NCBI RefSeq assembly: GCF_028641065.1 | Contig: NC_073395.1 | Location: forward strand, 18,042,001 to 18,106,000 | Direction: 5' to 3' | Length of the DNA stretch: 64,000 nt | DNA from: Leucoraja erinacea | Taxonomy: Eukaryota | In this document: positions 958-63,195 of the stretch, piece after piece | How the letters are laid out: each line of letters begins with the position of its first letter | Numbering within the stretch: position 1 is the stretch's first letter | The notes under the pieces: model-generated | Databases searched by the model: none | What the model was told of the DNA's origin: nothing | What the model saw: the letters and a program-made list of their open reading frames with translations, nothing else | Program-made: the position numbers and the translations under genes

Positions 958-3900
958 TTGTCGAACGAGCCAGAGAGAAGTGTCTGTGCTTCAAACGGAT
1001 GCCAGTGGAGAGTCTGCACCTGAAACAAGAACAAATGGGAAAGGATTCACAACAAAACTGGGGAATGGACAGGGCAATTCTGAGAAGGTCGGTGAGAGTC
1101 AGAGAAAAGGCAGTCATGTTGCATTCTGTCACAAATAGAGCTAGTGGGTTACTCCCACCTGCCTGTCCTTAGTTCGGGGCTCCAAGTGCTTATTCAGGTA
1201 CTTTCTACAAAAAGCGAGGAGAGCCGCCTGCATCATGCAGTCTCTCTGGGTGTAGTTCTTCTCCCCAGCTCATGTCCATGGTTATTGAGCACTCTGCTAA
1301 AGTGAATAGGTCCGTCATGTTCACCATGTCTAGACCTCTCATAACTTTATACACCTCAATTCAATCTCTCCTCAGTCTCCCTCACGCCGAAGAAACTCTC
1401 CAGCAACAGCATACTCCTCTCAGAATGCTGCTGGTCGTCACAAAAAAAAAAATTAACAAATAAATTCTTTCAAACGTTGAACTGAAATGGGGGAAACAAA
1501 GTCTGAAAATCACACCAAAGGAGTTATAAAGAAAAGGTCTGACTATTTGACAAGTTTGCTCCTTCTAAAATGTCTCTGAAATTTGACCCTTGCTAGCTGG
1601 TCTCTAGACTTTAGAGATATATCGCGGAAACAGGCCCTTTGATCCGACCAGCGATCACCCCGTACACTAATACTATCCTACACACTAAGGACAATTTGCC
1701 ATTTTTACCAAAGCCAAGTAACCTACGAAATTGTACTTTGGAGTGTGGGAGGAAATTGGAGCACCTAGAGAGAGCCCATGTGGCCACGGGGAGAACGTAC
1801 AAATTCCGTACAGGCAGCACCCAGATGATCGAATCCGTGTCTCTGATGCTGTAAGGCAGAAACTCTACCGCTGCAATACTATGCCGCCCTAAAAACCCAC
1901 AACAAAGATGGACCCAAGCAGGTTCCCTCTCTGCATTAATGTTCCTGGAACTATGGACATGCATTTGTTAGCCACAGCCACTAATGAGCCCTGGGCAGTT
2001 CTTTCTCTCAAGCCAAGAGATACCCAGGCCAATTTCCAGTGGGCCGAATGGCCTGTTTCTGAGCTGCAGATCTCCAACACCCACGCTCCTGCTGTCCAAA
2101 TATACTGCACTGGAAGGCCTGGAACAATGATAAAACAAGCAATGGTTGTTGCAGCAAACATAATAGAAAGCAAGAAATAACAGGAAGCAAGCAGATAATT
2201 GAAGGCCCATCTGAGCACATAGTAATCAGGGTAATTAGAGGCTATGCTGTCTGATACACAGTAGACACCGATTGTCCGATAATGAGGATCGCACGTGGGC
2301 TAAAACTGATGCTATTCCGGAAAAGAGATAATCGGCATAGTTGTGGATTATCTGACGTGATTCAACTCATCTGCTCACCACCTGATCTGTTTCTAATTAT
2401 GAGAGAAGCAGCTGACATGATGGTGTGAACAGGCCCCTCCTGTACTGTAAACCCTAACGATTCCATGATACTAAAATCCTCAGTGACCCCAGAAGAGAAC
2501 TGAAAAGTTCATTCTAAAACAGCCCAGTTAAGGCCAGCGAATGCACCCTCTCCCCACTAATTGTCTATTCCCTCCATTTGATGCATATCCCCACACACCC
2601 ACAGACTCCACTACCTGGAATAAACTTCTTCACTGCGCAAATCACTGGACCATAAGTTCCCTTCTACAGTAAGAAGCCTTCCTCCTCACTACAGGGCAAG
2701 ACTGGTCCTTCATTATGAGTGGCCAGGGTGCTAATGGTCCTTGATTATGTTTGCTGGGAGAGGGAAGATAAGAGAGTGATGGGGGTGAGACTGGTCCTTG
2801 ATCATGCACTGCTTGATATAAAAACACAACTTTGAATGATTTATACAAATATGAATATTAGGAACACAAGGTTAGCCATGCCCCTCAAACTTCTCCTAAG
2901 AAAACGTACACTGGCAGTATTTAACCCTTCTTTCTCCCTCTGCCCTAAAAATATTCAAAGATTCTCTCTCGCTGTCTATTTGCGGGAAATAATTCCAAGC
3001 TCACAACTCTCAGTGAAAACAATTTGCTTCATTTCTTCTCAAATGGGTGACCCCTTATTTTTAAACAGTGGCCCCAAACTAGATCCCCCCCCCCCCCACA
3101 TGAGGAAATGGAAATATTCTCTCCAGTCACCCTCTCGTGATCTTATGTATTGCAATTGGTACCTTTCACTCGTAAATATAAAGGAAAAATCTACAGGTGC
3201 AGGAAGTCTGAAATAAAAACTGAAAATGCTCACTCAGCAGGTCATGCAGCATCTCTGGAAAGAGAAACAGAGTTAACATTTCAGGTTAAAAGCCTTGGGA
3301 TGGAACTGGGAAAGAGATAAAACAGGTTAGTTTTTAGTAGGAGAGAAGACGGGGTGAAATGGGAGAGTCTGGCACACTGACTCCATGTATACCACTTCCG
3401 CTGGTTCCCCTTCCACTATTTGGCTATCAAAACACTTGTCTGACATGGTTTCTCATTGAATTTGGGGCCCAGTGTCCCAAGATTGTGCTCAGCACTGAGG
3501 ATGCAGTCAGCATGTACAGAGAGCACCTTTTAGCATCTGTACTTAATAGATCCAATTTCGGGCACTCGCTGAGATGTGTGTGTGACCCGCAGTCCCTCCC
3601 ACTAAGATTCACCCCACACTTCATGCACAGGGTGCTGTGGACCCGGCTCCCTGCACATTCTCAAAGGAGCTCTTCGAAGATAGACACAAAGTGTTGAAGT
3701 GACTCAGCGGGTCAGGCAGCATCTAGTTAACAATCTTGTTGTGCAAAGCCCCTTGGGCAACAGTGACCATAATACGGTGGAATTTGGCATTAAGATGGAG
3801 AGTGACACGGTTAATTCAGAGTCGAGGGTCCTGAACTTAAAGTTGACTTTGATGTTATGCGATGGGAATTAGCTAGGAGAGACTGGTAAATGACACTTAA

Positions 3901-6900
3901 AGGATTGACAATGGATAAGTAATGACAAAGATTTAAAGATCGTATGGATGAATTACAACAATTGTTCATCCCTGTCTGGCGTAAAAATAAAACGGGGAAT
4001 GCGGCTCAACCGTGGCTAATGAGGGAAATTAGGGATAGTGTTAAATCCAAGGAAGAGGCATATAAATCGGCCAGAGGAAGCAGCAAAGAAGAGGACAGGT
4101 AGAAATTTAGAATTCAAGAGGACAAAAGGGTTAATTAAGAAGTGGGAAATAGAGCATGAAAGAAAGCTTGCGGGGAATATAAAAACTGACTGTAAAGGCT
4201 TCTTTAGATATGTGAAGAGGAAAAGATTAGTGAAGGCAAATGTAGGTCCCCACAGTCAGACACGGGTGAATCAGAAACAGATAACAATCAGCACGGGAGC
4301 ACCTCAGGCTGCGTGCTCGGCCCCCTGCTTTACTCACTCTATACTCATGACTGCGTAGCCGGACATAGTGCTAACTCCATCATCAAGTTCGCCAACGACA
4401 CTACGGTTATGGGACGAATCACTGATGGTGACGAGTCAGAGTATAGAAATGAGACCGACCGATTGACCAAATAGTGCCAGCACAATAACCTGGCTCTCAA
4501 CACCAGCAAAACCAAGGAACTGTTTGTGCACTTTGGAAGGGGTAGGATAGGGACCCACAATCCTGTTTATATCAACGGGACTATGGTGGAAAGGGTCAAG
4601 AACTTCAAATTCCTGGGCGTGTATATTTCTGAGGATCTTTCCTGGTCCCAGCACACTGATGCAATTATAAAGAAAGCACATCAGCGCCTCTACTTCCTGA
4701 GAAGATTACGGAGAGTCGGTATGTTAAAGAGGACTCTCTCGAACTTCTACAGGTGCACAGTAGAGAGCATGCTGACTGGTTGCATCGTGGTTTGGTTCGG
4801 CAACTCGAGCGTCCAGGAGCGGAAAATATTGCAGAAAGTTCTGACCACTGCCCAATCCATCATCGGCTCTGATCTCCCCACCATGGAAGGGATCTATCGC
4901 AGTCGCTGCCTCAAAAAGGCTGCCAGCATCATCAAGGACCCACACTATCCTGGCCACACACTCATCTCTCCGCTGCCACAGGAGCCTGAAATCTGGTACA
5001 TCCAGGTTCATGAACAGCTTCTTCCCCACAGCCATCGGGCTATTAAACTCGCCATCAAACAAACTATGAACTATAACAGCCTATTGCACTTTATCTGTTT
5101 ATTTATGTGTATATATATGGTCTTTGCTATATAGACGCACTGAACTGTTCTGTATTTATGCTTACTATATTATGTTGTTCTGCAGCAAGCAAGAATTTCA
5201 TTGTCCTATCTGGGACACATAACAATAAACTCTCTTGACTTGACTAATGGGAAACAAGGTAAAGGCAGACCAGTTAAACAAGTACTTTGGTTCTGTCTTT
5301 ATGGAAGACACGAACAATCTCCCAGATATACTAGGGGACTGAGCATCTAGTGGGAGGGAGGAACTGAAGGGGATCCACATTAGTCAGGAAATGGTGTTAG
5401 GTAAACTGTTGGGACTATAGGTAAATAAATCCCCAGGTCACTGATGGTCTGCATCACAAAATACTCAAGGTGGTGGCCCTAGAAATCGTGGATGCATTGG
5501 TAATTATTTTCCAATGTTCTTTTGACTCTGGATCAGTTCCTGTCGACCAGCTAATGTAACTCCACTTTTTAAGAAGGAGGGAGATAGAAAACGGGGAACT
5601 TTAGATCAGTTAGCCTTACATTGGTAATGAGGAAGATGTTTGAGTTGATTGTTAAAGATGTTATAGCAGCACATTTGGAAGGCAGTGACAGGATCGGTCA
5701 AAGCCAGCATGGATTTATGATAGGGAAATCAAGCTTGACTAATCTTCTGGAATTTTTTGAGGATGTAAAAAGTAGAATGGATAAGGGAGAGCCAGTGGAT
5801 GTTGTGTACCTGGACTTTCAAATAGCCTTTGACAAGGTCCCACAAAAGAAACTAGAGTGTAAAATTAGAGCACATGGTATTGGGGATAGGGTATTGACAT
5901 GGATAGAGAACTAGTTGGCAGACAGGAAGCAAAGAGTAGGAATTAACGGGTCAGTTTCAGAATGGCAGGCAGTGACCAGTGATGTGCCACAAGGCTCAGT
6001 GCTGGAACCCCAGTTATTTACAATATATATTAACGATTTAGATGAAGTAATTAAATGTGAGTTTGCGGATGACACAAAGCTAGATGGCAGTGTGAGCTGC
6101 GAGGAGAATGTTATGAGGCTGCAGGATGATTTGGATATGTTGGGTGAGTGGGCAGATGCATGGCAGATGCAGCCTAATGTGGATAAGGCAGATTATTATT
6201 TGAATGGTGTCGGATTAGGAAAAGGGGAGGTGCAATGAGACCTGGGTGTCCTTGTACATCAGTCACTGAAAATAAGCATGCAGGCACAGCAGGCAGTAAA
6301 GAAAGCAAATGGCATGTTGGCCTTCATGGCAAGAGTATTTGAGTATAGGATCAAGGAGGTCCTACTGCAGTTGTACAGGGCGCTGGTGAGACCACAACTG
6401 GAGTATTGTGTGCAGTTTTGATCTCCTAATTTGAGGAAGGACATTCATGCTAGTGAGGGAGTGCAGAGTAGGTTCACCAAGTTAATTCCTGGGATGGCGG
6501 GACTGACATATGATGAAAGAATCGGTCAACTGGGTTTATGTTCACTGGAATTTAGAAGGATGAGAGGGAATTTTATAGAAACATATAACATTCTTAAGGG
6601 ATTGCACCAACGGGAAAAATGGTCCCCATGTTGGGGGAGTCTAGAACCAGGGACCACAGTTTAAGAATAGGCCATTGAGGACTGAAATGAGGAAAAACCT
6701 TTTCACCCAGAGAGTTGTGAATCTGTAGAATTCCACAGAAGGCAGTGAAGGCCAATTCACTGGATGCTTTCAAGAGAGTTAGATATGGCTCTTAGAGCTA
6801 ACGGAATCAAGGAATATGTGGAAAAAGCAGAAATTGGGTACTGATTTTGGATTATCAGCCATGATCTTATTGCATGGCGGTCCTGGCTCAAAGGGCCGAA

Positions 6901-8613
6901 TGGCCTACTCCTGCACCTATTTTCTATGTTTCTATCTCTGGTGAAAAGGAATAGGTGATGTTTCGGGCCAGAACCCTTCATCCGACACTCTTCCCTGCCC
7001 AAGACAGAATTCATGGGTGCTGATTAATTTCTAAACTCAATTCATAAAAGGTCTTATTAATCCACAGGATGTAGGTCTCATTAATCCACAGGCAGTATTT
7101 AGTTCAGCACAGTTAAATGAACACATGATGGGTTACAGCTGTTCAGTTACTGCCATCATGCTCCGCTCTGTGGGAAACAGCAGCCACATTTGGTGTAGCT
7201 TCACTGAGCAGGTCTGAGTGTTCAGATCCATTGAAACCCAAGTATTCACAGAATTAGTAGGTGGTCTGGCCAGAGTCGGAGGACAAATTATATCCTGGCA
7301 GACAAGGACCGGTAATTTCTCTCATCAGGGATCAGAGCTCAAGGGCCGTGTTTGGAAGTAATCGCTTCAGAGGTCAGTTTAAATTGTCCACTGTTCCAGG
7401 ACAACGGAAACGAGACATCAGATAAACATTCCCAGGCAGGACAATGGAGTCAGAGAGATGAGTAGCCACATTGGAACCTTCCGTCAGCTTCATTAGCATC
7501 GACTTCACACGGCCACTTCGTCACATCGTCTGAACAACTCTGTGGCAGTGGTAGAGTTGCTGCCTTACAGAGCCAGAGAACCGGGTTCAATCCTAACTAC
7601 GGGTGCTGGCTGTATAGAGTTTGTACTTTTTCCCCGTGATCTGCGTGGGTTTTTTCCGGGATATCCAGTTTCCTCCCATACTCCAAAGACGTAAAGTTTG
7701 TAAGTTAATTGTAAATTGTCCCATGTGTGTGTAGGATAGCGTTAGTGTGCGGGGATCGCTGGTCGGCGCAGACTCGGATGGGCCAAGGGGTTTGTTTCTG
7801 AGCTGTATCTCTAAACTAAACAAGTCGACTGACATACACAAAATTGCTTCCTATTCACAGAGAGCTTGGCATTCCACAGCCCGAGTCCAGCTCAGTCATA
7901 CTCCTCACACTAGTAGAATCCTCACACCGGCATCAGAAACACTAAAAATATTGTCTTATTAAAGCAAGGTAGCGTGCAAGTTTGTATCTTTCCATCATAG
8001 TTAGTCTAGAGATGGAATGTATTGCCATTTCTGCAGGGACAGTGAAAAGCTGCTGGAATGCAGTCATTCGGATGGATGGATGGAAGCAGCGCTTCCAGCA
8101 ATTTAGTTTGCTGATCCCATTCTTAATGGTACAGGGCACCTTTTATTCATCATTCAAAAACATGACTAAATGAACAAGTACAGCCTGTGACTTACAGGAG
8201 GAACACACAAACTCACTCACTCCCCTCCAGCCCATTCCTGCAGCAACTTCATTCCGATCTGTTCTCTAATAATTCAGCATCTATCACCACAGCCTGCAGA
8301 TCACTATCCTGCTGATGCCTCCTGTAAGTACTGCTTGTTTACTTTGTATATAAATATAGCAGGAATTATATTTGATTGCTTACTTGAGAGCTACAATTGG
8401 CACTGGTTTGCTAACGTCTGCAACATGGAGCCACAGCTTTGCAGAATGTGCAGCACCACTGGTTTCAAGTAATTGAGGAAGTGGTTTGGGGTGATGAGTG
8501 AAGGAAGGGGAGCTATTTATCGGACATTAAAGGACTTGCATGACATTTAAGTTTAAATCAGACTGGCCTGTTCTATAATTATTCAGCATGACCGATTTTT
8601 CATTGGAACTGCT

Positions 8614-8654
<41 letters not shown>

Positions 8655-11600
8655 AGGGGAGGGATGGGGGGGGGGGGGAGAACATGTGCCCACAGTAGGA
8701 AACAGAGCTCTACTGAGACTGTATTTAGTGACAAGCCAATGAATCCGAGGGGCATGGTCCCTGGGGAGAGACCCCGTGGGAGCCAGGCACTAAGCTCAAC
8801 TTTACGGCGGCAGAATAAAGTGATCCCAAAGATTTCCTCCCCCAATAACAAATTCCTTCTAATTTCAGCCACATGGATCAGCCATTCCCATCTCTCTACT
8901 TCAGCATCAGTGCAAGATTAAAACTGTGTATGAGAGGCATGGTTTACAGAAGTAGCTGAAATAATTCTAAAACAACAGCTTAGATTTCTAGAAAAGAATT
9001 TCATTTCACATGTTCTATCAGAACACCCAGCAACAGAGATCTGGTTATTGTGGATATTGCAGAAGGAAGTTCCGAGGCGAGCGGGTAATAATGAGATTGT
9101 TTCTAGATGAGAGGCTTTGGCAAGTGGGGTGCCAAAGGGATCAGAGTTGTTGCCACAGCTGTTTCCTGGTCTACATCAATGATTGGGATGAGAAGCCTGT
9201 GTAACATATCCAGGTTTTTCAACGACACAAACCCAGGATGCAGTGTGATTGTGAAACGTTTGTGAGGTTATAGATCGGCAAAGTGAATGGGTAGCACCCA
9301 CAGTAGATGGAATATAATGCAGACAAATGTGAGGCCATTCACTTTGGTAAGGGGGTGGGAAATTGCAACCTTCACGTGGTCCACCCTGTTTCGACTAATG
9401 CAATCAACCCGACGTGCACAGACAAAGAGATCAAATAGAACAAGTTGACCTACAACGTTAGGCTGTGCACGCCATACACAAGAAGACGACTTTGGTAAAA
9501 GAGAAAAACCAGGGCCGCACTTTTAAATGGTGAGAGACTGAATGTGGTGTTCCGAGTAACTAAGTAACCTTGAGCTGTGTGCATATCAAGCAATTTGGAG
9601 AGTAAACTGAACATTGGCTTAGAGATAGACATAAAACGATGGAGTAACTCAGTGGGTCAGGCATCTCTGGAGAAAAGGGAAAGGTGACATTTTGGGTGGA
9701 AACCCTTCTTCATACATATTGGCTTTCACTGCAAGAAGATTCAACCAATAGAGTAAAGATGTCTGACATCAAATACATGGGTGTGTGCTGGGATCACGCC
9801 TGCAGCACGGTGTACAGGTCTGGTCTTCCTGGCAGAGAGAGGAGAAACCTGGGGTAGAGGAGATTCAGTAGATCATTTCCTGGGGCGGGGGATTTGTCCT
9901 ACCCAGAACACAGAAAGCAGCCTGGGCTGCATTTCTAGAATGTAGAGGAATGAGAGTCGACCTTATTGAAACATTCAAAATTCTTAGGGGAATTGGCAGG
10001 GACTTTTTTTCCCTAGCTGAATGAATGTATGAATGTATGAATGAATGAATGAATGAATACATTTATTGGCCAAGTATTCACAATGAAGGAATTTGCCTTG
10101 GTGCTCCGCCTTCAAGTGACGACATGACATACAGTAACAGTTAGGAATGACACATTAATAATAATAATAAAACATTATCGATTAAAGTATGGGCTTGGTA
10201 TTAAAGTAAGGGAGTGGTCATTTGGGACTGAAATTAGTAGAAATTTGTTAGCGTGGAAGGGAATCTTTGGGATCAATTACTGAGGGCACAGGATGCTCTA
10301 TCACCGAGGATATTCAAGGCAGAGCTCGCCAGACTTTTAGACATTTGGACAGATAGATACATGGATAAGGAATAGCTCAGAGGGATATGGGCCAAGTGCA
10401 GACAAATGGGTCCAGCTAAGATGGGGCGTTGGGGTCAGCTTGAACGGGTTGGGATGAAGGGCCTGCCTTCATGCAGTATGCCTCTATTAAGGGAATAGAG
10501 AGAGGAATGAGTTAGTGGATGGTTGAAACGAGCGTGAGCGGTGAAGAGAGTGTTTGCTTCTGTTTCAGTTGTCAACTGGAGCCGTTTTCTCTCCTCAGGG
10601 TGAAATGGCCACTCTGGCAGACGTGCTGGTCACGCTGCTGCTGACCTCCCTCCCCCCGCGGGTCGCATCGGTCACTGGTCTGAATGACCGATCAGCATTC
10701 TCGGCCACCAGGACCAGCAGCATGTTGGGGGGTCTGCAGAGAGCGGTCACCTTCGACAAGCTCTTGGTTAACATTGGACACGACTTCCACCCGGACACAG
10801 GCAGGCTCGTGTGCAGGATTCCCGGGGCTTACTATTTTGCCTTCACAGTTGGAAAGTATCCCAAGAAGATGCTGTCGGTCATGTTGATGAAGAACAGCCA
10901 CGAGGTACAGGCGATAGCATTCAGTGACCACAGGCGCAAGGACCGCAAGGTGCAGAGCCAGAGCCTGATGCTACCACTGAGTGTGGGTGACTATATCTGG
11001 CTGCTCCTGTCAAGCAGCCCCAAGTACGCGCTGTACAGCAACATGGGGCCATACACCACCTTCACCGGCTACCTGGTCTACACAGAGCAGCTGTCCCAGG
11101 GGCTGACCAATAGCCTGCCCCCTGTCCCCATCGCCTCCTGCTGTTGCCCCTCCACTCCGCAGCATCATCATGGCTACCGGTCGGCATTCTCAGTGGCTAG
11201 AACGAGCTCTCTGCTGGGGCAGAGCACAGGGGATTTGCAGCAAGAAGCCGTCACCTTTCACACCGAATACATCAACATGGGCAGGCACTTCAACAAGCAG
11301 AAGGGGATCTTCACCTGCCACATCCCTGGAGCTTACTACTTTTCTTTCAATGTCGGAAAGCATCCCTTTAAGGCCATTTCTGTGAAACTGATGAAGAACC
11401 AGAGTGAGGTGCAGGCCATGATCTTCGACGAGGACGATTCAGAGCGGAGGGAGATGCAGAGCCAGAGTGTGATGTTACTCCTGGCAATGGGCGACAGAGT
11501 GTGGCTGCACAGTCAGCAGCATCAGCGCTTTGCTCTCTATAGCAATCTCGGCAAGTACGTCACCTTCACCGGCTTCCTCGTCTATCCGGACACTGGCTCC

Positions 11601-14600
11601 CTGAGGAGCAGTGAGCCTGTGTGCACGTGTCCAACCTCTCCCCTGCGCAGCAACTGCCAGAACACTCCGCTTTGATTTCAAACATCTGCAGAGAATGGGT
11701 AGTTTTGCTCAGTGGGTCTCAAATCCCACTGACATCAGACGCTGCTAAACCAGATGGCGGTAGCTTAGTGCTTCCAACTGCTTCAGTAGTTTAACTGACT
11801 TGTTAGTAAGTTAATACAGGCCATTAAATTACCATCATGGGCAACCTGAACAAGCTGGTACTGCTACTCATCAATCCTACAGCCTCATCAATCCATTACA
11901 CACAGGTTCCTAACCTCACCACACCCGAGACAGCTGGCATTGACAACAAGGCAAAGTTTCACTGAGCGTGGCCGCAGGAACCCGGTAAACCTGAGTCAAC
12001 GGGCAGCAAAAGGGAACAATCCACCGACTGGACTCATTCAGGACATGATGGCACTGTTGTCGGTCATGTATCCCAGCCCCAGAACATCACCACAGCTGCC
12101 GTTCAGTTGGCCCAACATCTCCGCATTTTCACCATCGGACTTCCTTCCATGAGAGGGTCAGAAGAGGGGACCATCGCGGATGATTGCAGTGTGCAACTCC
12201 ATAGAAAAGGGATCAGTTCATGTGCAGCAAGCTTCTGGGCTGACAAGTGTTATCTTCGCCCCCTTCAAGCAAGAGAGGCAACTTACTACCCGTGGTTCAC
12301 AAAGGCATCACCATAGTCGAATGTTGGGGACACTACTGGCCGGGACAAGGCACCTGGATACCGTGCAGGTCAGCGATCAGCTGCCCCACCACAAGTCACT
12401 CACCAGAGCTCTTCCGTCATCACAAATCGCATTGGGGATGTGATGGAGTATTCTCCACCTTCGTAGAGGGGAATAGCACTAATATCAACAACCATCATTC
12501 CTTTTACCACCGGTGACCATGGCTACAGAGGGTGCCAGCCTCAACATGCACTGTTAACATCACTCCGGCAGCTCCCAATCCCGTCACGCTCCTGACCCAG
12601 GAAAACATCACTGCTCCTCGATCATCGTTGAGCGATTATCCTGGCATTCCCTTGGGAACACTATCCCCACGTAACTCAAGTCAGCATATCACCACTTCCC
12701 GGAGCAGTCAGACGCAGGAGGTAAACTGACCATACCAGCGACACCCAGTGATTGAAAGAAATTAGGACTGATGTGGAGAAAGCAATGAAGGAGGAACGAG
12801 AGACGTAAATGGGCGGAGAGTTGAAATGGGAATTTCAAAACACAGCTGGCAATAGTTTGGTCGGGAAGAAGACAGGCAAGAGTGACTCCCCTGCTGCGTT
12901 GAGAGCAGGTATTCAGGTGCTGCTGAGGTTGTAAACTTGCACTGATCGGGATAACAAAGGTTAAGGACCGAAGATGAAAGATCAGGAGAAGCGTAGCACA
13001 TTCCCGGCTAGGATAGAGTTACAGGAAATGAAAACGTTTGCTTTAGCTCACCTTGTCTGTGTGGCCAGTGAGGCAGGTCACGGCTTTCCTTTCAGACATA
13101 TCCCAGAGAATCACAGTGTCATCGGCAGACGCGCTGGCTAGAACAGTCCTAACATGCAATAGAAACATTCCATTACCAGCAGTGACATGGATGAATTCAA
13201 ATCAGGATCATGTAATATCCTTAAGGAAATCTGCAGTAATGATTCTGTATGGAATTTCCCAATTTCAGCTCTCCCATGCCCGATTCATGTAGCAATCTTT
13301 CTGAGATTGTACAGCGTTGACAGAAGTGCACAATGTGCAGAAACAGACAGGATGTCTATGGGATACAGCCAGCACGGAGTCAGCACTGCACAAACTCGGC
13401 ACGATCCCGGGACCAGGATGGAGTGAGGATGATTGGCCGCACACTATAGGTTAGAACGAGGGCAAACTCACAGAAATACGATTGCGAGAGAGACCGGCGG
13501 TATGGACACTGATTGGCCCTCAGGGAAACTAGCTTTGTCTCTTTAAGAGCCAAGAAGAAGGGACCCCAGCTTTGGAGGGCAGACAATCCCAGACTGAAAC
13601 AAGGAAGAACTAAAGGCTTATAAACCCTTGGATTTCTCCCACTAACTGGGCAATAAATGATTGTTGTATATTTCATGGGTGAGATCAATGATTTTTAGTG
13701 AGTAATGTACCACGGGACATGGCAGACATGATAAAGGTTCTGCCACAGCCTAGACCGGAGGAGCAGCAGGTCGAAGGGCAGAATGGCCGCAATCCTCTGC
13801 TTTGAACTCATCGCCAATTGCTTTGTGAACATGAGAACACAGGAGCAGGAGGAGCCAGCGGGACCTCAGCCTCCCCACCATTCAATGTGTGAATGAGTTC
13901 TGGGAGCGATCGGTGTGACCCAAACAGCGGGGACTGCACTGTGGGACAATGTCCACCATTCCCCGTTTGAATGAGTTCTGGGGGCAATCTCTCTGACCCA
14001 GGGAGGCAGGGATTGTACTTTGGGACAGGTGTACTCTCTCCCACATGGGACATCACTAATCTGTACACTTCTTCACTCCCAGCGATGCACACATTTCCCC
14101 TCTCGCCACTTGTTGCATTGGGCTGCACACACTCCCTGTCACCAGGTTAAGAGCATGAACCAGCTGCTTCTCCACAGGAGTTTCCTGCTGTCTGGCAAGG
14201 ACATGAAACATCAGCATCATCTCCTGCCCGCTGCTCACACTGCTGATAATTCCCTCTATTTGCACCTCCCTGACCTGCAGGGACTGAGCACAAATGGTCA
14301 TTCACACCAACATTCCACACAAATGTTAAAACAAAATAAGTCACCAAGTTAAGTGAATTATCTCATTGTTATCAGCGGTTAAACAATTCTGCAAGATAGA
14401 CATCAAAAAGCTGGAGTAACTCAGCGGGTCAGGCAGCATCTCTGGAGAAAAGTTTCAGGTATGACCGTTCCTCAGACTATTCCTTTTCTCCAGAGACGCT
14501 GCCTGACCCGCTGAGTTACACCAACTTTTTGTGCCTATCTTTAGTTTCAACCAACATCTGCAGTTCCCTCCTCAACAATTCTGCAAATCTATCAGGTGCT

Positions 14601-17600
14601 GACATCTGGTGGGAAAACGAAGAACTGCTTCAAAACACAGAGTGCTGGAGGAACCCAGCAGGTCAGTCAGCATCTGCAGAGGGAATGGACAGACGACTTT
14701 TGTTCGCGACCATCTTCAGTTGCCTGTTCACAGATGCCGCCTGACCTGTTGAGTTCCTCAGCATTCCGTTTCTTGCTCCAGATTCCAGCATCTGCAGACC
14801 CTTGTGCCCCACAGATACAGCTCGTCCCCTGTGAAAGGTACAAGGAACAAGCTGTCAGCCCGTGTGGGCAGGAGGGAGGGATCACTGTGGGTGAGGCAGC
14901 ATCTCTCCCCTTCCCACTGCATCATGAGGCAGGTAGACTGGAAGGTGCCACTCACCTGATGTTTCTGTTCCAGGAAAGGTCCAGCACCGCATCAGAATGT
15001 CCTTCATGCCCCGACTCTGTCCCCTGAAACAATAGACCAGCACGGATAAGCTGGGGACTCCTCCGAGACAGGACCAGGCAGAACCCGCATGGTGAAAGTG
15101 TTCCTCTGTGGCAGTAATGAGCGGTCAGCTGTCCACATTGCTGGAGACTGGGCAGATGAGAGCCCATACCGTGCAGATATCCCTCTGTGGTTGGAGTGAG
15201 CAGCCAACTGTACATGCGGCCGGGGACAAGGCCAGGGACCTCCAGAACATCAGGGGGGCCTGCAGCCCCGGAGGCCCAGCCCAGCCTGGCTAGCTGAGGG
15301 ATGGTCGGTGAGGGGGACAGTGGGACGTGGAAGGGGAGGATGTCAATGGGAAAAGGAGCTGGGGTGACTAACTGTGGTGCGGATCAGCTGTGGTGGGGGA
15401 GCGGAGAGATGTGGAGAAAAAGTGGAGAGAGGGGGGAGTAGGAGGTTACACCATTGCTGGGGCCTCTGCCTCCACGTACCTTCCGCTTTTTCTTCTTGGA
15501 CGTCTCACTGCCCAGGCTGAAGACGGGCTCCAGACTGTCGACCACATCCAGGTTCCACACATCGATCACAGGAGTCATGTTGCCCACCGCAGCATGATTG
15601 CCTGCCAGAGGAGCGCACAGGGGTCAGAGGGGACGCCGGGGTCAGGGGGGACACGCCGGGGACACGCCAGGGGCAGAGGGGACACGCCAGGGTCATGCCG
15701 GAGACAGAGGGATTACGCAGGGGTCGGAGGTGAAACGGCAGGGTCGGAGGGGACAAGCCGGGGTCAGAGGCAACAAACTGGGGGTCATAGATGGACACAC
15801 TGGGGGTCAAAGGGGGGTCATGCCTGGGTCTAATGGGGACACACAAGGGGTCAAAGGGCGTAACGCTCAGGTCAGAGAACTGCCAGGGCTTGGAGTCGTG
15901 CAAAATTCACAATATATCTGGGTGAGCACTTGCACTGCAGAGCACCACATGTCATATGCTGGAAAATTAGATATTTTTGTGGATGGGAAGGGTGGCAGAA
16001 AGGCCTGTGGTACGGAAGGCCGTGTAGCCCAGCTTCCCTCAGCACTGTGACAATAGACAGGACGAGACCACTCACAGATCCAAACACAACTCACCCACTG
16101 GCCTTCCTGGGTCTGGATCAAAGTTGAGCCATTCCACACACAGGGGGTAGGCTGGAAGCAGCAGGTCATGGTGCACGTACAGGCTCTGCTCATCCTGGTT
16201 GTACACTGCAAGAAACACACGTGTCACGGTCAGCGGGATACGTCACAGACCAGCCACCGCCCCATCACGCGGTCTACACACCTGACCACGCCCTGCAGTC
16301 TCCCAGTGTGCTCATCACAGCTGGGATCTGAGCTGTTTGACACAAATGCCCCCAGATCCAGGGGCAGAGGGAAACACAGACAAATCCTGGGAATCTCAGC
16401 ACTTCCCGTCTGAGCTCATTCCAAACCAAGGCCCTGCAGACAAGAGCAGCCTGTGCCTTTACAACCTCTCACTCAGTTCTAGGCCAAACAGGTCAATATC
16501 TACACCTGCTGCCACTACAAACTAATACTGGAGGGGAGGGTGCTGGATATACCTCACCGAATATCTCGAGGATGCTGCAATCCTTCTCCACCTTCCCCGT
16601 CACTATCAGATTGTCGCTCGGTTTGATTTTAAAATCTTCATCTTCGTACTGGTCCTACAAAAATATATTGTTAGATGTTAATCTACTCATGAATTAAGCA
16701 CAGTGGAAAGAATTGTTGCTTAGTTAACATCACAATGGAACAAGTGCTCGGGACAATACTAAGAAATGGCCAGCTTCAACTTAACTGTATCTTTAAGAGT
16801 GACGTAGGGGTCGTCTTCGTTGCTGGCATAGACAGTGAGCCCGCCCAGACTATCGCCAAAGTTCACACCACCTGCACAGAATGTCAGATATTATCAGAAG
16901 CACAAATCACAGATATCAATTCACATAATGTGCTTTGGATTTGCACAGTCGGTTGTGATGGCCGGCATGGAGAGGATGGGTTAAAAGGCCTGTGCAGTGC
17001 TACATACACTAACAAATCATCTACTCACCAAATGCACAAATCAGCTTGAACATACAATCTCCCAGAACTAAGCAATTCAGATCTATTTTCCCCAGAGATG
17101 TACCTCTTTTCCCCAAAATGGTAGAGAAGCTCGAAAGCATGTATCATCAGACTCCTGAGGGTGTCAGGGGTTACGGGGAGAAGGCAGGAGAATGGGGTTG
17201 AGAAGGAAAGATAAATCAGCCTTGATTGAATTGTGGAGTAGACTTAATGGGCCAACTGGCCTAATTCTGCTCCTAGAAGTTATGAATATAGGAACAATTT
17301 ATTTCCTTTGGTTATCAAGTTTCTGAACAGTCCTTCCATAAGTTATGGTACTGTCCAATACTGTTGTACTCCCTTACCTGGACTTTGTCTATGGAACTGA
17401 TGCACTACAATGCTGAGAACTATATTCTGTATCTTCCCCTTTGCTCTACCTATTGCACTTGAGTTTGATTTGATTGTATTTATTATCCGGTCTTTTTAGA
17501 TGCAAAGCTTCTCGCTGCACCTCAGTACACGTGACAATAATAAACCACTACCCATTTCCCAATGGATTTGTATCACTCCAGAAATCCACTGACATTGCTA

Positions 17601-19461
17601 GACACAACCATGCTGGAGAAGGGCCTCGACCTAAAACATCGCCTATTCCTTTTCTCTAGAGATGCTGCCTGACCCGCTGAGTTACTCCAACACTTTGTGT
17701 CTATTCACACTTGCAGCCAACGTGGGAATAACATCAGCACATGGATGACACAGTACCCCAGCCAATCTCTTGATGTGTTTTGATGTCCCTCCTCCACATT
17801 AAACTGGTTTCCCCTCAGCCCATTCCAATGAACTCTCACTGAGCCACACACCTGCCACCCAGCCACAGAGCCTCCGAGAGCAATTAATTTCATTGTAATG
17901 AAACAAATTGAAATTTGGTACATTACATACAGGTTTATAAATGGCTCAAACGTGGTCAAACAGGACTAGCTTAGATGGTTGGCATTGGCGAGTTGGGCCA
18001 AAGGACCTGTTTCCACTGATACACTCCGTCAGTGAGCGTGCATGAGTTTATAAAGCCCTGATGATGTATTTGGCTAACGTTGACAAGGCTTTGCAGGCGA
18101 GAGCGTTGAATACCACCATCATTTAGTATGAGACTCACCTTCCTCCTCGTCGTACTCATCCAGGTCATACTCTGCCAGACTGTCCCGATCCCCCTCCTCC
18201 TGCTCCTTCTTCTCCTCTCTACCTTCTGGAGTGTCAGCATCAGAGGCAGGAAGGCCTGATCCTTCCCCCAGCTCCTGTGTCCCCTCTGCAGCCTCTTCAT
18301 TTTCCTGCTCCCGGTCCCTAGAAACAAACCATAATGTTTGGTGTGTTCCGTCAAAAAGCTCGCACTCAGCACCCGCAAACCCTGACAACTCTTCACGTTC
18401 AACCTCAGCAACAGGCGCCAGTGACACTCACTTCAACTCTTCCTTGGCATTGAGGATTAACTGTTGCAGCTCCTGTTTAGTCAGGGTGACCTAGGAAATG
18501 AAAGGCACGCAATGACCACGCATGTAAACACATGTACACTCAGACTTGGGGCCCAGGAACATGCAGCAGCTATAGTGGCACCGCTGATCCTGCGTGCCAG
18601 CACACACACAACTCCATGTTTAAGGAACTGCAGATGCTGGAAATTCGAAGGTAGACAAAAGTGCTGGAGAAACTCTGCGGGTGCAGCAGCATCTATGGAG
18701 CGAAGGAAATAGGCAACGTTTCGGCCCGAAAAGTTTCGGCTCCATAGATGCTGCTGCACCCGCAGTTTCCCCAGCACTTTTGTCTACCTATACACAACTC
18801 CAATGTGTGCTGCCTGGAGACACCTCCGCCAGGAATTCCCAGTGAGGGAGCTCACGGTTAGTGAAGGATCTCACGCCCAGTGAGGGATCTCTCCCCAGAG
18901 GAAGCTCATCTAGTGAGGGATCTCGCCTACAGTGAATGATCTATCCCCCAGTGAGGGATCTCACCCCTAGTGAGTGAGGGAGCTCATCCATAGTGAGAGA
19001 TCTCTCCCTCGGTGAAGGATCTCCCCCAGTGAGGGATCTCATCCATTATGAGGGATCTCTCCCCCAGTGAAGGATCTCTCCCCCAGTGGGGGATCTCCCG
19101 CAGTCCCCAGTGAGGGATCTATCCCCCAGTGAAGGATCTCATCCCCAGTGAGGGATCTCTCCCCCAGTGAAGGATCTCATCCCCCAGTGAAGGATCTCTC
19201 CCCCAGTGAAGGATCTCTTCCCCAGTGAAGGATCTCACCCCAGAGGGAGCTCGTCTAGTGAGGGATCTCATCCCCAGTGAGGGACCAGCACGCAGGTTGG
19301 GCGCCATGTTTACTGTCCCGCCCCCATCCCACCCCCCGGCGGCGCTCCCTCATCACCCCCTGGCGGCGCTCCCTCCCTCCCTCCCTCCCCCTGACCTTGT
19401 GCGGGGTCTCCTGAGCCGCCCCGCGGGGCGTCCACCGGGCGCACGTGTGGAACCCGCTCAT
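958..19461 (-). CDS. PWP1: Periodic tryptophan protein 1 homolog (WD40 protein), coding exons 1-10; 3' exons lie outside the window
   Basis: Exons, all GT-AG and phase-consistent: 19461-19396 ([22 protein letters not shown]), 18490-18432, 18317-18139 (acidic, [13 protein letters not shown]), 16871-16786 ([18 protein letters not shown]), 16654-16558 ([11 protein letters not shown]), 16205-16095 ([22 protein letters not shown]), 15601-15480 ([27 protein letters not shown]), 15023-14956 ([12 protein letters not shown]), 13148-13052 ([15 protein letters not shown]), 1019-958 ([21 protein letters not shown]). The peptides match human PWP1 as recalled. Confidence 0.95.
1608..1890 (-). mobile_element. 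tRNA-derived SINE, same family
   Basis: Reverse-complement match to 7542-7822. Confidence 0.7.
3730..6935 (+). mobile_element. Degraded 5'-truncated CR1-type LINE (end of endonuclease, RT, 3' tail), interrupted by a Rex1 insertion at about 4280-5245
   Basis: LGNSDHN endonuclease motif near 3750; [53 protein letters not shown]; tail ggccgaatggcctactcctgcacctattttctatgtttctat. Contains stops and frameshifts. Confidence 0.9.
4280..5245 (+). mobile_element. Rex1/Babar-type LINE 3' fragment nested in CR1
   Basis: [45 protein letters not shown]; ends in aataaa plus (ttgac)n. CR1 sequence resumes on both sides. Confidence 0.8.
7542..7822 (+). mobile_element. tRNA-derived SINE (HE1/V-SINE-like)
   Basis: A-box-like tggtagag, B-box ggttcaatcc, CR1-like 3' end gggccaagggg..tgtttct..gctgtatctctaaactaaac. 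Confidence 0.75.
8614..8653. repeat. Poly-G homopolymer (40 nt)
   Basis: Direct inspection. Confidence 0.9.
9040..10020 (+). mobile_element. Highly decayed CR1 RT fragments with other repeats inserted
   Basis: FLVYINDW and NDT RT remnants; cttattgaaacattcaaaattctt. Confidence 0.5.
10018..10058. repeat. (GAAT)n microsatellite
   Basis: Direct inspection. Confidence 0.8.
10605..11675 (+). CDS. C1QTNF4: C1q/TNF-related protein 4-like (two tandem C1q globular domains, no collagen region), 356 aa, single coding exon
   Basis: Acceptor ttttctctcctcag ends at 10598 and the ATG is at 10605. A signal-peptide-like N-terminus is followed by two RSAFS..RT..FD/H..NIG/NMG..F..C.IPGAYYF.F..GK.P.K..SV.LMKN..EVQA...QSQS.ML.L..GD..WL...TFTG.LVY units, the architecture of C1QTNF4. 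Ortholog versus paralog status is uncertain. Confidence 0.9.
11940..12760 (+). mobile_element. Highly decayed non-LTR retrotransposon RT fragment
   Basis: IADDC and WADK remnants; no intact ORF. Confidence 0.4.
14395..14573. mobile_element. Penelope-derived fold-back element with 13-bp TSD
   Basis: Inverted arms at about 14395-14452 and 14483-14540; aacaattctgcaa at 14382-14394 and 14574-14586. Confidence 0.8.
15615..15860. repeat. Degenerate G-rich minisatellite (ggggtcagaggggacacgcc) in PWP1 intron 6
   Basis: About 20 bp periodicity. Confidence 0.7.
18617..18791. mobile_element. Penelope-derived fold-back element with 11-bp TSD
   Basis: Inverted arms; acacaactcca at 18606-18616 and 18792-18802. 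Confidence 0.8.
18838..19285. repeat. Minisatellite, about 19-20 bp unit (cccagtgagggatctct...), in PWP1 intron 1
   Basis: Roughly 20 degenerate tandem copies are visible. Confidence 0.9.
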
Positions 19462-23258: not shown

Positions 23259-59464
<36,206 letters not shown>

Positions 59465-60512: not shown

Positions 60513-63195
60513 ATGGGCTGCAACTCCATCCACTGGTTCCGCAAAGGACTCCGTCTGCACGATAACCCGGCGCTGCTGGAGTCGGTGCAGGGTGTCGGCA
60601 CCATCCGCTGCGTCTACATCGTGGACCCGTGGTTCGCGGGCACCTCCAGCCTGGCCATCAACCGCTGGGGGTGGGTACACGTCGCGGGTAGGCCCGCTCG
60701 CCGCGCCATCGCGTTACCATGGAGACTGGCCCCGGCCCGAGCCCCTCTCTCCCAGCCGGAGGCTCCCCCACCCCCACCCACGGCTGCTCTCCCACACCCC
60801 GTCCCGAACCGCTCTCCCACGTCGGTCCGGCCCCAGCCGCTCCATCTCACCGCCGGCCCAAGCCGCTCCTCCCCACCCCGGTTCGCTCTCCACCCGGCAC
60901 CACAACACCGGTTCCTGCCCCCAGCTCTCTCTGTCAAATCCCCGCCAAGCAGGGAATCGCGAAGGAGTATTGTGAAGACCAGGGAGGCAGTGTATGATTG
61001 GTGTTTGTTTATTATTGTATTCTCGGATTTCCTTTTTAAGCTGAGATGCAGGGAAGACCTTTTAAATATGTATAATTGTGACCATCATAAATTCCGCGGA
61101 TGCTGGCAACCTGGAACCAAAGCGCACGGCTGCAAATTCTCCTCCCCCTCTCTCTCTCCGCAGACGCCGTCTGACCCATGGAACATTTATATAAAACATT
61201 TTGTATGAACACCTGACGGAGACGGTCTTTTAGTAAATCAGGGAGCATAAATTAAAATGATTTGGCGGGGGGCGCTGCAAACACATTTTCCTGAACGCTG
61301 TTGGGGTCTGGTAATAGCTGCCAGAAGGCAGAACGCCTCGCCATGTTTAAAATGTTCTCGTGTCTTTACTTAAACTGCTGTGAACTTAGTGCGGAAAGAC
61401 TAGTTGCTCTTACGACGGGCATAAAGGCAGTGTCAAATGGCAGCTAATCCTGCAACCAATCACATTTTCTCTGTGTTATAAAGCGCACTTCCAAATTTGG
61501 AAGGTTTCTATAGTTGGAAGGAATCTATAGCTTTTTCTCCACACAAATGCTGCACCAATTAGTCTATTTCTATATTTAGTCCTGACCCATTCCTCTACTA
61601 ATTTTCCATTATTCTCACAAAATTCTTAACAGCCTCCCCCCCTCCCCCCAACTTGAACACTGGGACAATTTAAGTGACCAGTTAACCAACTAAGCTGTCA
61701 AATATTCAACCTGAAACTTCTCTGTCTTATTTAAAGCCATTGTATGCCATCCCTATAATACTTGCTGCTAAGTGTCTCAACCTCTAATGAGATGATTGAC
61801 AAAACATTCATTCTGTTTCACTCTTCACTACAGCTACCTAATGAGAATTGCTAGTATTTCCTGTTTTCATTTCAGTTTTCTGGCATCTGTAGGATTTTTT
61901 GTTGTGTTCCTGCTCCTCAGGGCTGGGCTGTGGCTCTGTTGACTGTCTTCAGTTACATGTGTTGTGAGCTTATATAACAGTGATGGTGCAACCCAATTCC
62001 TGAGAGCACATCTCAAACTGCAAATGTCATCTGTTCCTTGATTCCCCTACAATGGTCAAGAGACTCTGTGCATCTACGCGATCTATTCCTCGCATGAATT
62101 TGGATTCTTCTATAAGATCACTCCTCATCCTCCTCTGCTTCAAGGAATAGATACTCAGCCTACTCAACCTCTCCCCATAGCTCACACCCTCTCGTCCTAG
62201 CAACTTGAAAATAGGACAATTTTCCCCATAGGCTATATTGTCAATGTAAATTATACAAACATGCATCCAAACACCGCGTGTCCCATGAGACAGCCTATCC
62301 CCTAAGAATCTGTTTATTTCTGCTCTTTTTATCCATAAAATAACTTTCAATTCACACTGGTACATAATACCCATTGTTTGTGTATAACCTTGGAGGGTGT
62401 TACATAGCTGCTGCCTCAAACGCAAGAAGAAGTGTGCAACCTTGTCAAATGCCATAAAATCCAAATATTTCACATTCACTGGTTCCCCTAATGTTCTGCT
62501 GGTCACTTCCTCAGAACTCCAGAAGAATATTTAAACATTCCATAATTCCTTGATTACTTTCATAATTCCTTAATTCCTTCATCTGATTACTCTTGCAGAG
62601 TTACATAGAATAAGTCGTTCCACCAACCATGTCTGTGCTGAACTTGATGCCTAATTAAACTAATCCCTGCTGCCTGCAGTTCCAGCGCTATATTCTTAAT
62701 GTAGATTACAGCAGATTCCTACTACTGCATTACTCTAATATGTTGTTTCCCTCTTTTAAATAATGGGATCTCATTTCCAACCCACAGGAACAATTCTAGA
62801 ACCTAACAACCTTTGAAGAAAATAACATGAAAATTCATGATCTCTAAAGGCACCTCTTTTCAAACTCTGAGATGTATTAAGCAGTTTATGGGAACTTTCT
62901 ATGAAATGGGGAGTAGGTGCTGGAATGGAAGGTTGGTCACCGAACCATGGAGGAAAGAGTTATTTGAATTGGGAACAGATTGAATAAGGAAGGAGAATTA
63001 ACTAGTTTCAAATACGAGGAAGTTCCCTGTGTCATTATTGGAATGTTTTGAATTGACTGCTGTTCATCTTTGAGCTTGGCCTTCAGGTTCTTGCTACAAT
63101 GCCTTGAGGATCTTGACACAAATCTGCGGAAGTTAAACTCTCGCCTGTTTGTCATACGTGGACAGCCAGCTGATGTCTTTCCCAGATTGTTCAAG
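60513..63195 (+). CDS. CRY1: Cryptochrome-1-like (vertebrate repressor-type CRY), coding exons 1-2; the gene continues beyond the window
   Basis: Exon 1 is 60513-60670 (158 nt; [21 protein letters not shown]...[18 protein letters not shown]) with donor gtgggt. Exon 2 is 63087-63195 (109 nt; [36 protein letters not shown]), flanked by cttcag and gtgtgt. It lacks the CRY2 N-terminal extension; CRY1 versus a CRY1-like paralog is unresolved. Confidence 0.85.
62025..62510 (-). mobile_element. CR1 fragments in CRY intron 1
   Basis: [10 protein letters not shown] and [23 protein letters not shown] remnants. Confidence 0.6.

What the first reader, a model, noticed from the sequence alone, without database searches (positions are those of the whole stretch)
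1020..13051. Secreted tandem-C1q gene (C1QTNF4-like) nested antisense inside intron 9 of the housekeeping gene PWP1
Seen in sequence: PWP1 exon 9 ends at 13052 and exon 10 ([21 protein letters not shown]) is at 1019-958, so intron 9 is 12.0 kb, while introns 1-8 are 0.1-1.8 kb. An intact 356-aa C1QTNF4-like ORF sits in it on the opposite strand. From recall, human C1QTNF4 is not nested in PWP1 and lies on 11p11.2. Inference: this is a nested gene arrangement I do not recognise, possibly a second C1QTNF4-family gene lost in mammals, with potential transcriptional interference from the constitutively transcribed host.
Basis: partly seen in the sequence, partly recalled or inferred. Interest (0 to 1): 0.7.

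Follow-up and report, generated by a model that had tools for sequence, protein, structure and literature searches.

The report
C1QTNF4 twin nested in skate PWP1
A skate keeps an intact second copy of the gene for the secreted signalling protein C1QTNF4 on the opposite strand inside a 12-kb intron of the housekeeping gene PWP1; this copy likely dates from an early vertebrate genome doubling and was likely lost in land vertebrates, so it is an ordinary nested gene with an apparently undescribed history.

Summary
The nesting is real. PWP1 is single-copy with 15 collinear exons. Intron 9 (1020-13051, 12,032 nt) holds an intact 356-aa ORF with two C1q domains on the opposite strand. Contigs from two public runs join exon 9 directly to exon 10, and a contig from another species links the ORF's end to exon 9, so this is not a misjoin. 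The gene is not canonical C1QTNF4, which lies on C18 beside FAM180. It belongs to a second clade (support 100) found in chimaera, sharks, skates, coelacanth, bichir, sturgeons, bowfin and teleosts, where databases call it C1QTNF4-like or 'C1q and TNF related 13'. No tetrapod is among the 120 best of 543 hits. It shares a contig with PWP1 in 13 of 17 other species checked; nesting outside skates is inferred, not seen. The chromosome context fits a whole-genome-duplication copy. No spliced transcript of it was seen and transcriptional interference is untested; published mammalian data show it is rare. Nested genes are common. Modest interest.

The parts
1020..13051 (-). PWP1 intron 9, 12,032 nt, GT..AG; host intron
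   Evidence: junction across it in contigs of runs X1 and X2
13052..13148 (-). PWP1 exon 9 (97 nt, ends ...GHTDK)
   Evidence: tblastn with P0121; contigs and reads over 13049-13150 with loose ends matching exons 8 and 10
958..1019 (-). PWP1 exon 10 (62 nt)
   Evidence: single copy in the window
14956..19461 (-). PWP1 exons 1-8 (ATG at 19461; GC- and CpG-rich start). Exons 11-15 lie 0-4.1 kb left of the window
10605..11675 (+). Nested ORF, 356 aa: short hydrophobic leader, C1q domain 1 (about 29-161), Pro/Cys linker, C1q domain 2 (about 191-329), Cys-containing tail; no collagen repeat; one coding exon
10584..10598 (+). Pyrimidine tract and AG acceptor 6 nt before the ATG; the C18 paralogue has an acceptor 5 nt before its ATG
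   Evidence: sequence; use in splicing is inferred
11823..11828 (+). ATTAAA, the only A(A/T)TAAA on + between the stop codon and exon 9; candidate poly(A) signal
   Evidence: one 186-nt contig of X1 covers 11640-11825 at depth 3.7, strand unknown
7827..9304 (+). Stretch free of locally detectable repeats, with a consensus donor after 8323; candidate promoter and non-coding first exon of the nested gene (untested guess)
3670..7826 (.). Mostly decayed interspersed repeats (LINE- and SINE-like by recall). About 30% of the intron is repeat by a rough local mask (39% masked, of which about 1 kb is the match to the C18 paralogue)

Best explanation
An intact paralogue of C1QTNF4, likely a copy from early vertebrate whole-genome duplication, lies antisense inside PWP1 intron 9, and PWP1 mRNA splices straight across it. 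The nested gene likely has its own promoter and non-coding first exon within the intron, is likely transcribed weakly and in few tissues, and is predicted to make a secreted, collagen-free, two-C1q-domain oligomer acting as an extracellular ligand like CTRP4. The pair has likely been linked, and probably nested, since the common ancestor of jawed vertebrates; tetrapods likely lost the nested gene and some teleosts likely separated the two. Low, tissue-restricted expression would let both genes coexist without a dedicated interference switch.
For: SHOWN. Exon map and junction. ORF and domains. Canonical copy at G000:C18:34479577-34480581, 55% identical, 9 kb from a FAM180 gene, on the chromosome with the NDUFS3-family gene. 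Two clades with SH-aLRT 100 in a 70-row quick tree; the nested clade (13 rows) stays one side of a branch at 100 with four outgroups, one named Ciona savignyi. All 120 listed rows and all 120 sort to their own clade. C19 and C18 each carry a cryptochrome, a BTBD11/ABTB2-family gene, a FAM180 gene and a tandem-C1q gene; PMC4558521 treats the human CRY1 and CRY2 regions as paralogons (passages). Consecutive RefSeq numbers in 6 of 11 of these where both accessions were seen, and within 3 in a seventh. Constraint: X7 contigs list no indel in the ORF but many in the flanks; 7 of the 10 listed coding differences are synonymous (partial list); domains are 81-82% identical to a shark and 70-71% to coelacanth. 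INFERRED: own promoter, first exon, secretion, oligomer state, ligand role (PMC8042453 passages), nesting outside skates, tetrapod loss.
Against: No spliced transcript of the nested gene. Run X8 had no read on 10490-13042 among 7.3 million read (about 6% of the run; only 3 reads on PWP1 exon 9). X1 had one 186-nt contig of unknown strand. X2 contigs run unspliced through the acceptor. Two sturgeon-family species and two teleosts list different contigs. 423 of 543 hits were not listed, so a diverged tetrapod copy is not excluded. Both trees are quick searches without bootstrap, and with outgroups the canonical clade is not resolved as one group. No lamprey or hagfish sequence was identified. 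The leader is only moderately hydrophobic.
Confidence: 0.72

Rival explanations
1. The gene is the old paralogue but became nested only in the skate or batoid line, through a small local inversion or move; elsewhere it is merely PWP1's neighbour.
For: Nesting was seen directly only in G000 and in runs from close relatives. For other species I have only contig lengths and accession order. The region is rearranged in this genome: the PRDM4-type gene is 14 Mb from PWP1. Only 21-34% of host/nested pairs are shared between human and mouse (PMC11694760).
Against: Consecutive accessions in chimaera, four sharks and coelacanth show lasting adjacency. Moving an intact two-exon gene with its promoter into an intron of an essential neighbour is a rarer event than keeping it there (inference).
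Confidence: 0.17
2. The nesting is a working regulatory device: constant PWP1 transcription suppresses the nested gene, or nested transcription lowers or truncates PWP1 in particular cells, and this is why the arrangement has lasted.
For: Convergent overlap over 12 kb. PWP1 contigs reach depth 122-358 while the nested gene is barely seen. Three AATAAA hexamers lie on the host strand of the intron. Interference at nested loci has precedent (search listings only: PMC13309782, PMC3192792).
Against: No test here. Low expression needs no interference. Anticorrelation is rare among mammalian pairs in either orientation. The canonical paralogue works without a host, and teleosts seem to keep the gene away from PWP1. 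The hexamer count was not tested against chance.
Confidence: 0.12
3. A retrocopy or decaying pseudogene of C1QTNF4 dropped into the intron.
For: Single coding exon. Long branch for skates (0.46-0.56). Little RNA evidence.
Against: The canonical gene also has one coding exon, and both share an acceptor just before the ATG. The ORF is intact in other skates (331-352 of 356 identical) and has orthologues across jawed fishes. The C18 copy has an equally long batoid branch.
Confidence: 0.03
4. Assembly misjoin placing an unrelated gene inside PWP1.
For: A repeat-rich left half and a 65-nt G run at 8614-8678; no single record bridged 1020-10490.
Against: An independent contig links the ORF to exon 9 on the intron side, exon 9 splices to exon 10, and no exon 10 lies between them. 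This holds whatever the left half contains.
Confidence: 0.01

Closest known systems
C1QTNF4 / CTRP4 (human 11p11.2, location recalled; here G000:C18)
   Same: Two C1q domains in tandem, short linker, no collagen region (PMC8042453); one coding exon with an acceptor just before the ATG; 57-59% identity per domain.
   Different: Separate clade. Lies in PWP1 intron 9 on the cryptochrome-BTBD11 chromosome, not beside FAM180. No tetrapod member found. PMC8042453 calls C1QTNF4 unique in its tandem build; jawed fishes have two such genes.
Teleost 'C1q and TNF related 13' / si:ch211-219a15.3 and chondrichthyan 'C1QTNF4-like' database entries
   Same: Same clade, SH-aLRT 100; 57-74% identity.
   Different: Automatic or database names only; no paper found on the fish gene. 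In Chanos and Astyanax it lists a different contig from PWP1. The one paper with 'c1qtnf13' is on mammalian CTRP13/C1QL3, a different protein (search listing).
Intronic host/nested gene pairs (Montibus et al. 2024, PMC11694760; example MCPH1/ANGPT2)
   Same: A broadly expressed host with a lowly expressed nested protein-coding gene; about 17% of human and 12% of mouse genes host a nested gene of some type.
   Different: PWP1 and C1QTNF4 appear in none of 13,088 human or 7,560 mouse pairs, while neighbours BTBD11 and PRDM4 do. This pair may be far older than most.

Membership tests
C1QTNF4 (CTRP4) subfamily | Two tandem C1q domains | tested here: met
   Pfam PF00386 twice, 214 bits
C1QTNF4 (CTRP4) subfamily | No collagen region | tested here: met
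   No run of four or more G-X-Y; no collagen family hit
C1QTNF4 (CTRP4) subfamily | Signal peptide and secretion | tested here: inconclusive
   Best 11-residue hydropathy 2.2 from residue 4, against 1.9 in macaque C1QTNF4; no signal-peptide predictor or experiment
C1QTNF4 (CTRP4) subfamily | Oligomerisation and receptor binding through domain 2 | not tested
   Known for human protein (PMC8042453); no complex prediction run
Orthologue of human C1QTNF4 | Groups with mammalian C1QTNF4 and sits beside FAM180 | tested here: not met
   The C18 copy meets both; the nested copy meets neither
Fish c1qtnf13 / C1QTNF4-like clade | Groups with the proteins so named | tested here: met
Ohnologue pair from vertebrate genome duplication | Split after tunicates and before the jawed-vertebrate radiation | tested here: met
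   Both clades hold chimaera, sharks, ray-fins and coelacanth; the Ciona protein lies outside both
Ohnologue pair from vertebrate genome duplication | Paralogous chromosome context | tested here: met
   Four families tested have members on both C18 and C19; no chance control; NDUFS3- and PRDM4-type genes are single
Ohnologue pair from vertebrate genome duplication | Timing against cyclostomes (first or second round) | not testable with these tools
   No lamprey or hagfish sequence identified
Antisense intronic nested gene | Coding region wholly inside one spliced host intron, opposite strand | tested here: met
Antisense intronic nested gene | Own transcript with its start inside the host | tested here: inconclusive
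   One 186-nt contig only; first exon not located

The most novel reading that the evidence does not exclude
The PWP1[C1QTNF4] nest predates the vertebrate genome duplications, and its copies were then undone in three ways: the 11p-type copy lost the host, tetrapods lost the nested gene from the 12q-type copy, and teleosts moved the host away (beside TULP4-TMEM181). Cartilaginous fishes, bichirs and coelacanth would keep the original, giving a natural experiment in how nested genes are undone and a second CTRP4-type hormone that land vertebrates lack.
Probability: 0.25. Interest if true: 0.55.

Novelty: new member of a known kind. Interest (0 to 1): 0.32.

Why it matters
CTRP4 is studied in mammals as a structurally unique signal in appetite, metabolism and inflammation. 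Fishes have two such genes, often under the same database name, so comparative and fish functional work can confuse them; the PWP1 link gives a simple way to tell them apart. If nesting holds in sharks, chimaera and coelacanth, it is an unusually old host/nested pair. It reveals no new mechanism by itself.

Tried and rejected
Alternative exon 10 or a second PWP1: none. PWP1 remnants in 120 kb around the C18 paralogue: none; expected after this long, so uninformative. No indexed holder of the nested gene is on record as RNA; no evidence either way. The first read lay was swamped by repeats and its joints are repeat artefacts; only the PWP1 contig pieces were used. N-terminal extensions of shark and coelacanth models found no upstream exon. 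The 50%-identity representative search merges both clades and could not test tetrapod loss; 6 of its rows were named. The metagenome scan gave 24 loci, none a vertebrate locus with flanks. ESM Atlas gave only C1QTNF4/C1q clusters. Ten literature searches: no paper held both C1QTNF4 and PWP1, none held ch211-219a15.3; subscription journals are mostly missing. The ohnologue database paper PMC13450315 had one readable supplement without these names, and its database was not seen. The catshark paper's supplement (PMC11979771) could not be read; it may hold expression data for this gene. The careful tree did not finish; quick trees were used. No structure or complex prediction was run. Three look-ups of earlier scan findings returned nothing relevant.
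Full report
Observation. The window comes from a skate: its PWP1 exon 7 peptide is identical to Amblyraja radiata PWP1, and the nested protein matches the Amblyraja one at 347 of 355 residues. With P0121 as query, tblastn finds PWP1 exons 1-10 in the window and exons 11-15 within 4.1 kb to its left, all on the minus strand and in order. A search of G000 finds no second PWP1; 14 of its 20 matches are these exons and the other 6 are distant WD40 proteins at 27-34%. Intron 9 runs 13051-1020 (12,032 nt) with GT..AG ends; introns 1-8 are about 0.11-1.8 kb. The ORF 10605-11675 on the plus strand is 356 aa with two C1q domains and no collagen run.

Is the nesting real? Four public runs were laid on 10490-13800. 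In X1, a 1635-nt PWP1 contig (depth 122) covers exon 9 and continues into letters that match window 987-1016, which is exon 10, with one mismatch. X2 shows the same junction exactly (checked). Three X8 reads show the exon 8-9 junction only. One 2830-nt contig of X7, another species, covers 11561-13799: the last 115 nt of the ORF, the rest of the intron and exon 9. X2 contigs tile 10510-13078. No exon 10 lies in that interval. The ORF is therefore downstream of exon 9 and upstream of exon 10 in independent data. The left part, 1020-10490, was not bridged by any single record, so the exact length rests on the assembly. About 30% of the intron is repeat by a rough local mask.

What the gene is. 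G000 holds exactly two full-length tandem-C1q matches among 27: this one and C18:34479577-34480581 at 55%. The C18 copy lies 9 kb from a FAM180 gene, tail to tail, which is the human C1QTNF4 arrangement as I recall it. NDUFS3, a known C1QTNF4 neighbour in fish (PMC8812170, one passage), is on the same chromosome. A 70-row quick tree, made from rows I picked out of the 240 listed plus one, splits into two clades with SH-aLRT 100. One holds the C18 copy with chimaera, sharks, rays, ray-fins, coelacanth, lungfish, amphibians, reptiles, birds and mammals. The other holds the nested gene with chimaera, sharks, bichirs, paddlefish, bowfin, teleosts and coelacanth. All 11 unnamed rows placed (of 27 unnamed) fell among teleosts. 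With four outgroups, one named Ciona savignyi, the nested clade holds at 100 but the canonical clade is unresolved at its base. The window's protein is already in NCBI, UniRef and nr, and teleost members are named 'C1q and TNF related 13' or si:ch211-219a15.3.

Origin. C19 carries a cryptochrome exon at 60513 and a BTBD11-like gene at 58640-59464, both in this window, plus a FAM180 gene. C18 carries a cryptochrome, a BTBD11/ABTB2-family gene 70 kb from NDUFS3, and FAM180. The names CRY1 and BTBD11 are assigned by position and recall. PMC4558521 (passages) treats the human CRY1 (chr 12) and CRY2 (chr 11) regions as paralogons, and PMC4350181 (passages) gives BTBD11 as CRY1's neighbour. Both tandem-C1q genes have a splice acceptor 5-6 nt before the ATG and one coding exon. 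Together this fits a whole-genome-duplication pair that stayed near its ancestral place, not a recent insertion. I ran no chance control on the shared families.

How old is the link to PWP1? I could not read other vertebrate genomes and used two indirect measures. They differ in Polyodon, Acipenser oxyrinchus, Chanos and Astyanax. Sturgeons have their own duplication and I did not look up the other copies; the Astyanax records may come from different assemblies. Accessions: consecutive in 6 of the 11 same-contig species where both were seen (Heterodontus, Mustelus, both Scyliorhinus, Callorhinchus, Latimeria), within 3 in Rhinoraja, and far apart in Amblyraja, Heptranchias, Polypterus and Erpetoichthys. 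This shows adjacency across jawed vertebrates. Nesting there is inferred; I put it at about 0.75. An Electrophorus gene model fuses TULP4, TMEM181 and PWP1 domains, which suggests PWP1 has other neighbours in those teleosts.

Loss in tetrapods. No tetrapod or lungfish name is among the 120 best of 543 hits for the nested protein, while every tetrapod row among the 120 listed for the C18 copy sorts to the canonical clade. In the human and mouse host/nested tables of PMC11694760 (supplements S1 and S2 searched, uncut), PWP1 and C1QTNF4 do not occur, while BTBD11, PRDM4 and MCPH1 do. The loss is likely but not proven.

How it likely works. Shown: the host splices across the gene. The reading frame is conserved: no listed indel in the ORF against many in the flanks in X7, 7 of 10 listed coding differences synonymous, and 70-82% domain identity to coelacanth and shark. 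Inferred: a promoter and non-coding first exon inside the intron (candidate donor after 8323 in a repeat-free stretch), a poly(A) signal at 11823, low and tissue-limited expression, secretion, and action as an oligomeric ligand like CTRP4, whose domain 2 drives oligomerisation and receptor binding (PMC8042453, passages). Expression evidence is thin: one 186-nt contig in X1, no read in the sampled 6% of X8, and unspliced contigs in X2. Interference is possible but unsupported. In human and mouse, hosts are broadly expressed, nested genes are low and tissue-specific, and anticorrelation is rare in either orientation (PMC11694760, passages and section 4).

Novelty and verdict. Nested genes are common and this gene is already annotated, so it is a new member of a known kind. 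Ten searches found no paper on the pair or on the second fish C1QTNF4 (listings only, except the papers cited above); unread supplements of PMC11979771 and the ohnologue database of PMC13450315 may bear on this. Earlier scan notes held nothing relevant. Observation confirmed; interpretation partly supported; interest 0.32.

Noticed in passing
window 58640-59464 (-) and 23259-23400 (-): The BTBD11-like gene seems to fit in about 36 kb between the cryptochrome and PWP1, against 341 kb for human BTBD11 (row). Its first exon is only 34-38% identical to family members on C18 and C24. Its exons were not mapped.
   Followed up: partly
G000:C24:22981008-22981715: A third BTBD11/ABTB2-family gene, perhaps another duplication copy; no tandem-C1q gene was found on C24.
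   Followed up: partly
G000:C19:3641228-3641305: The PRDM4-type zinc knuckle lies 14 Mb from PWP1 and 1.1 Mb from a FAM180 gene, whereas human PRDM4 is next to the BTBD11-PWP1 region: a rearrangement in one lineage.
   Followed up: no
window 60513-60668 (+): Cryptochrome first exon head to head with the BTBD11-like gene; only one other exon-1 match in the genome, on C18.
   Followed up: partly
L002:1471-2451 (G000:C18): The canonical C1QTNF4 of skates and rays is about 327 aa against about 390 in sharks and sits on a long branch (0.7-0.83); both paralogues evolve fast in batoids.
   Followed up: no
proteins P0374, P0375, P0378, P0379; locus L029: Tandem-C1q proteins 35-40% identical to both clades, one from Ciona savignyi: the two-domain build predates vertebrates.
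   Followed up: partly
proteins P0381-P0390: Ten records of canonical C1QTNF4, closest to the teleost reference, break off at the same point in domain 1, which suggests a lineage-specific intron in the coding region.
   Followed up: no
window 8614-8678; 18838-19284; 23486-25082: A 65-nt G run in intron 9, a 19-nt tandem array of about 24 copies in PWP1 intron 1, and a long purine-rich low-complexity tract with 131 N.
   Followed up: no
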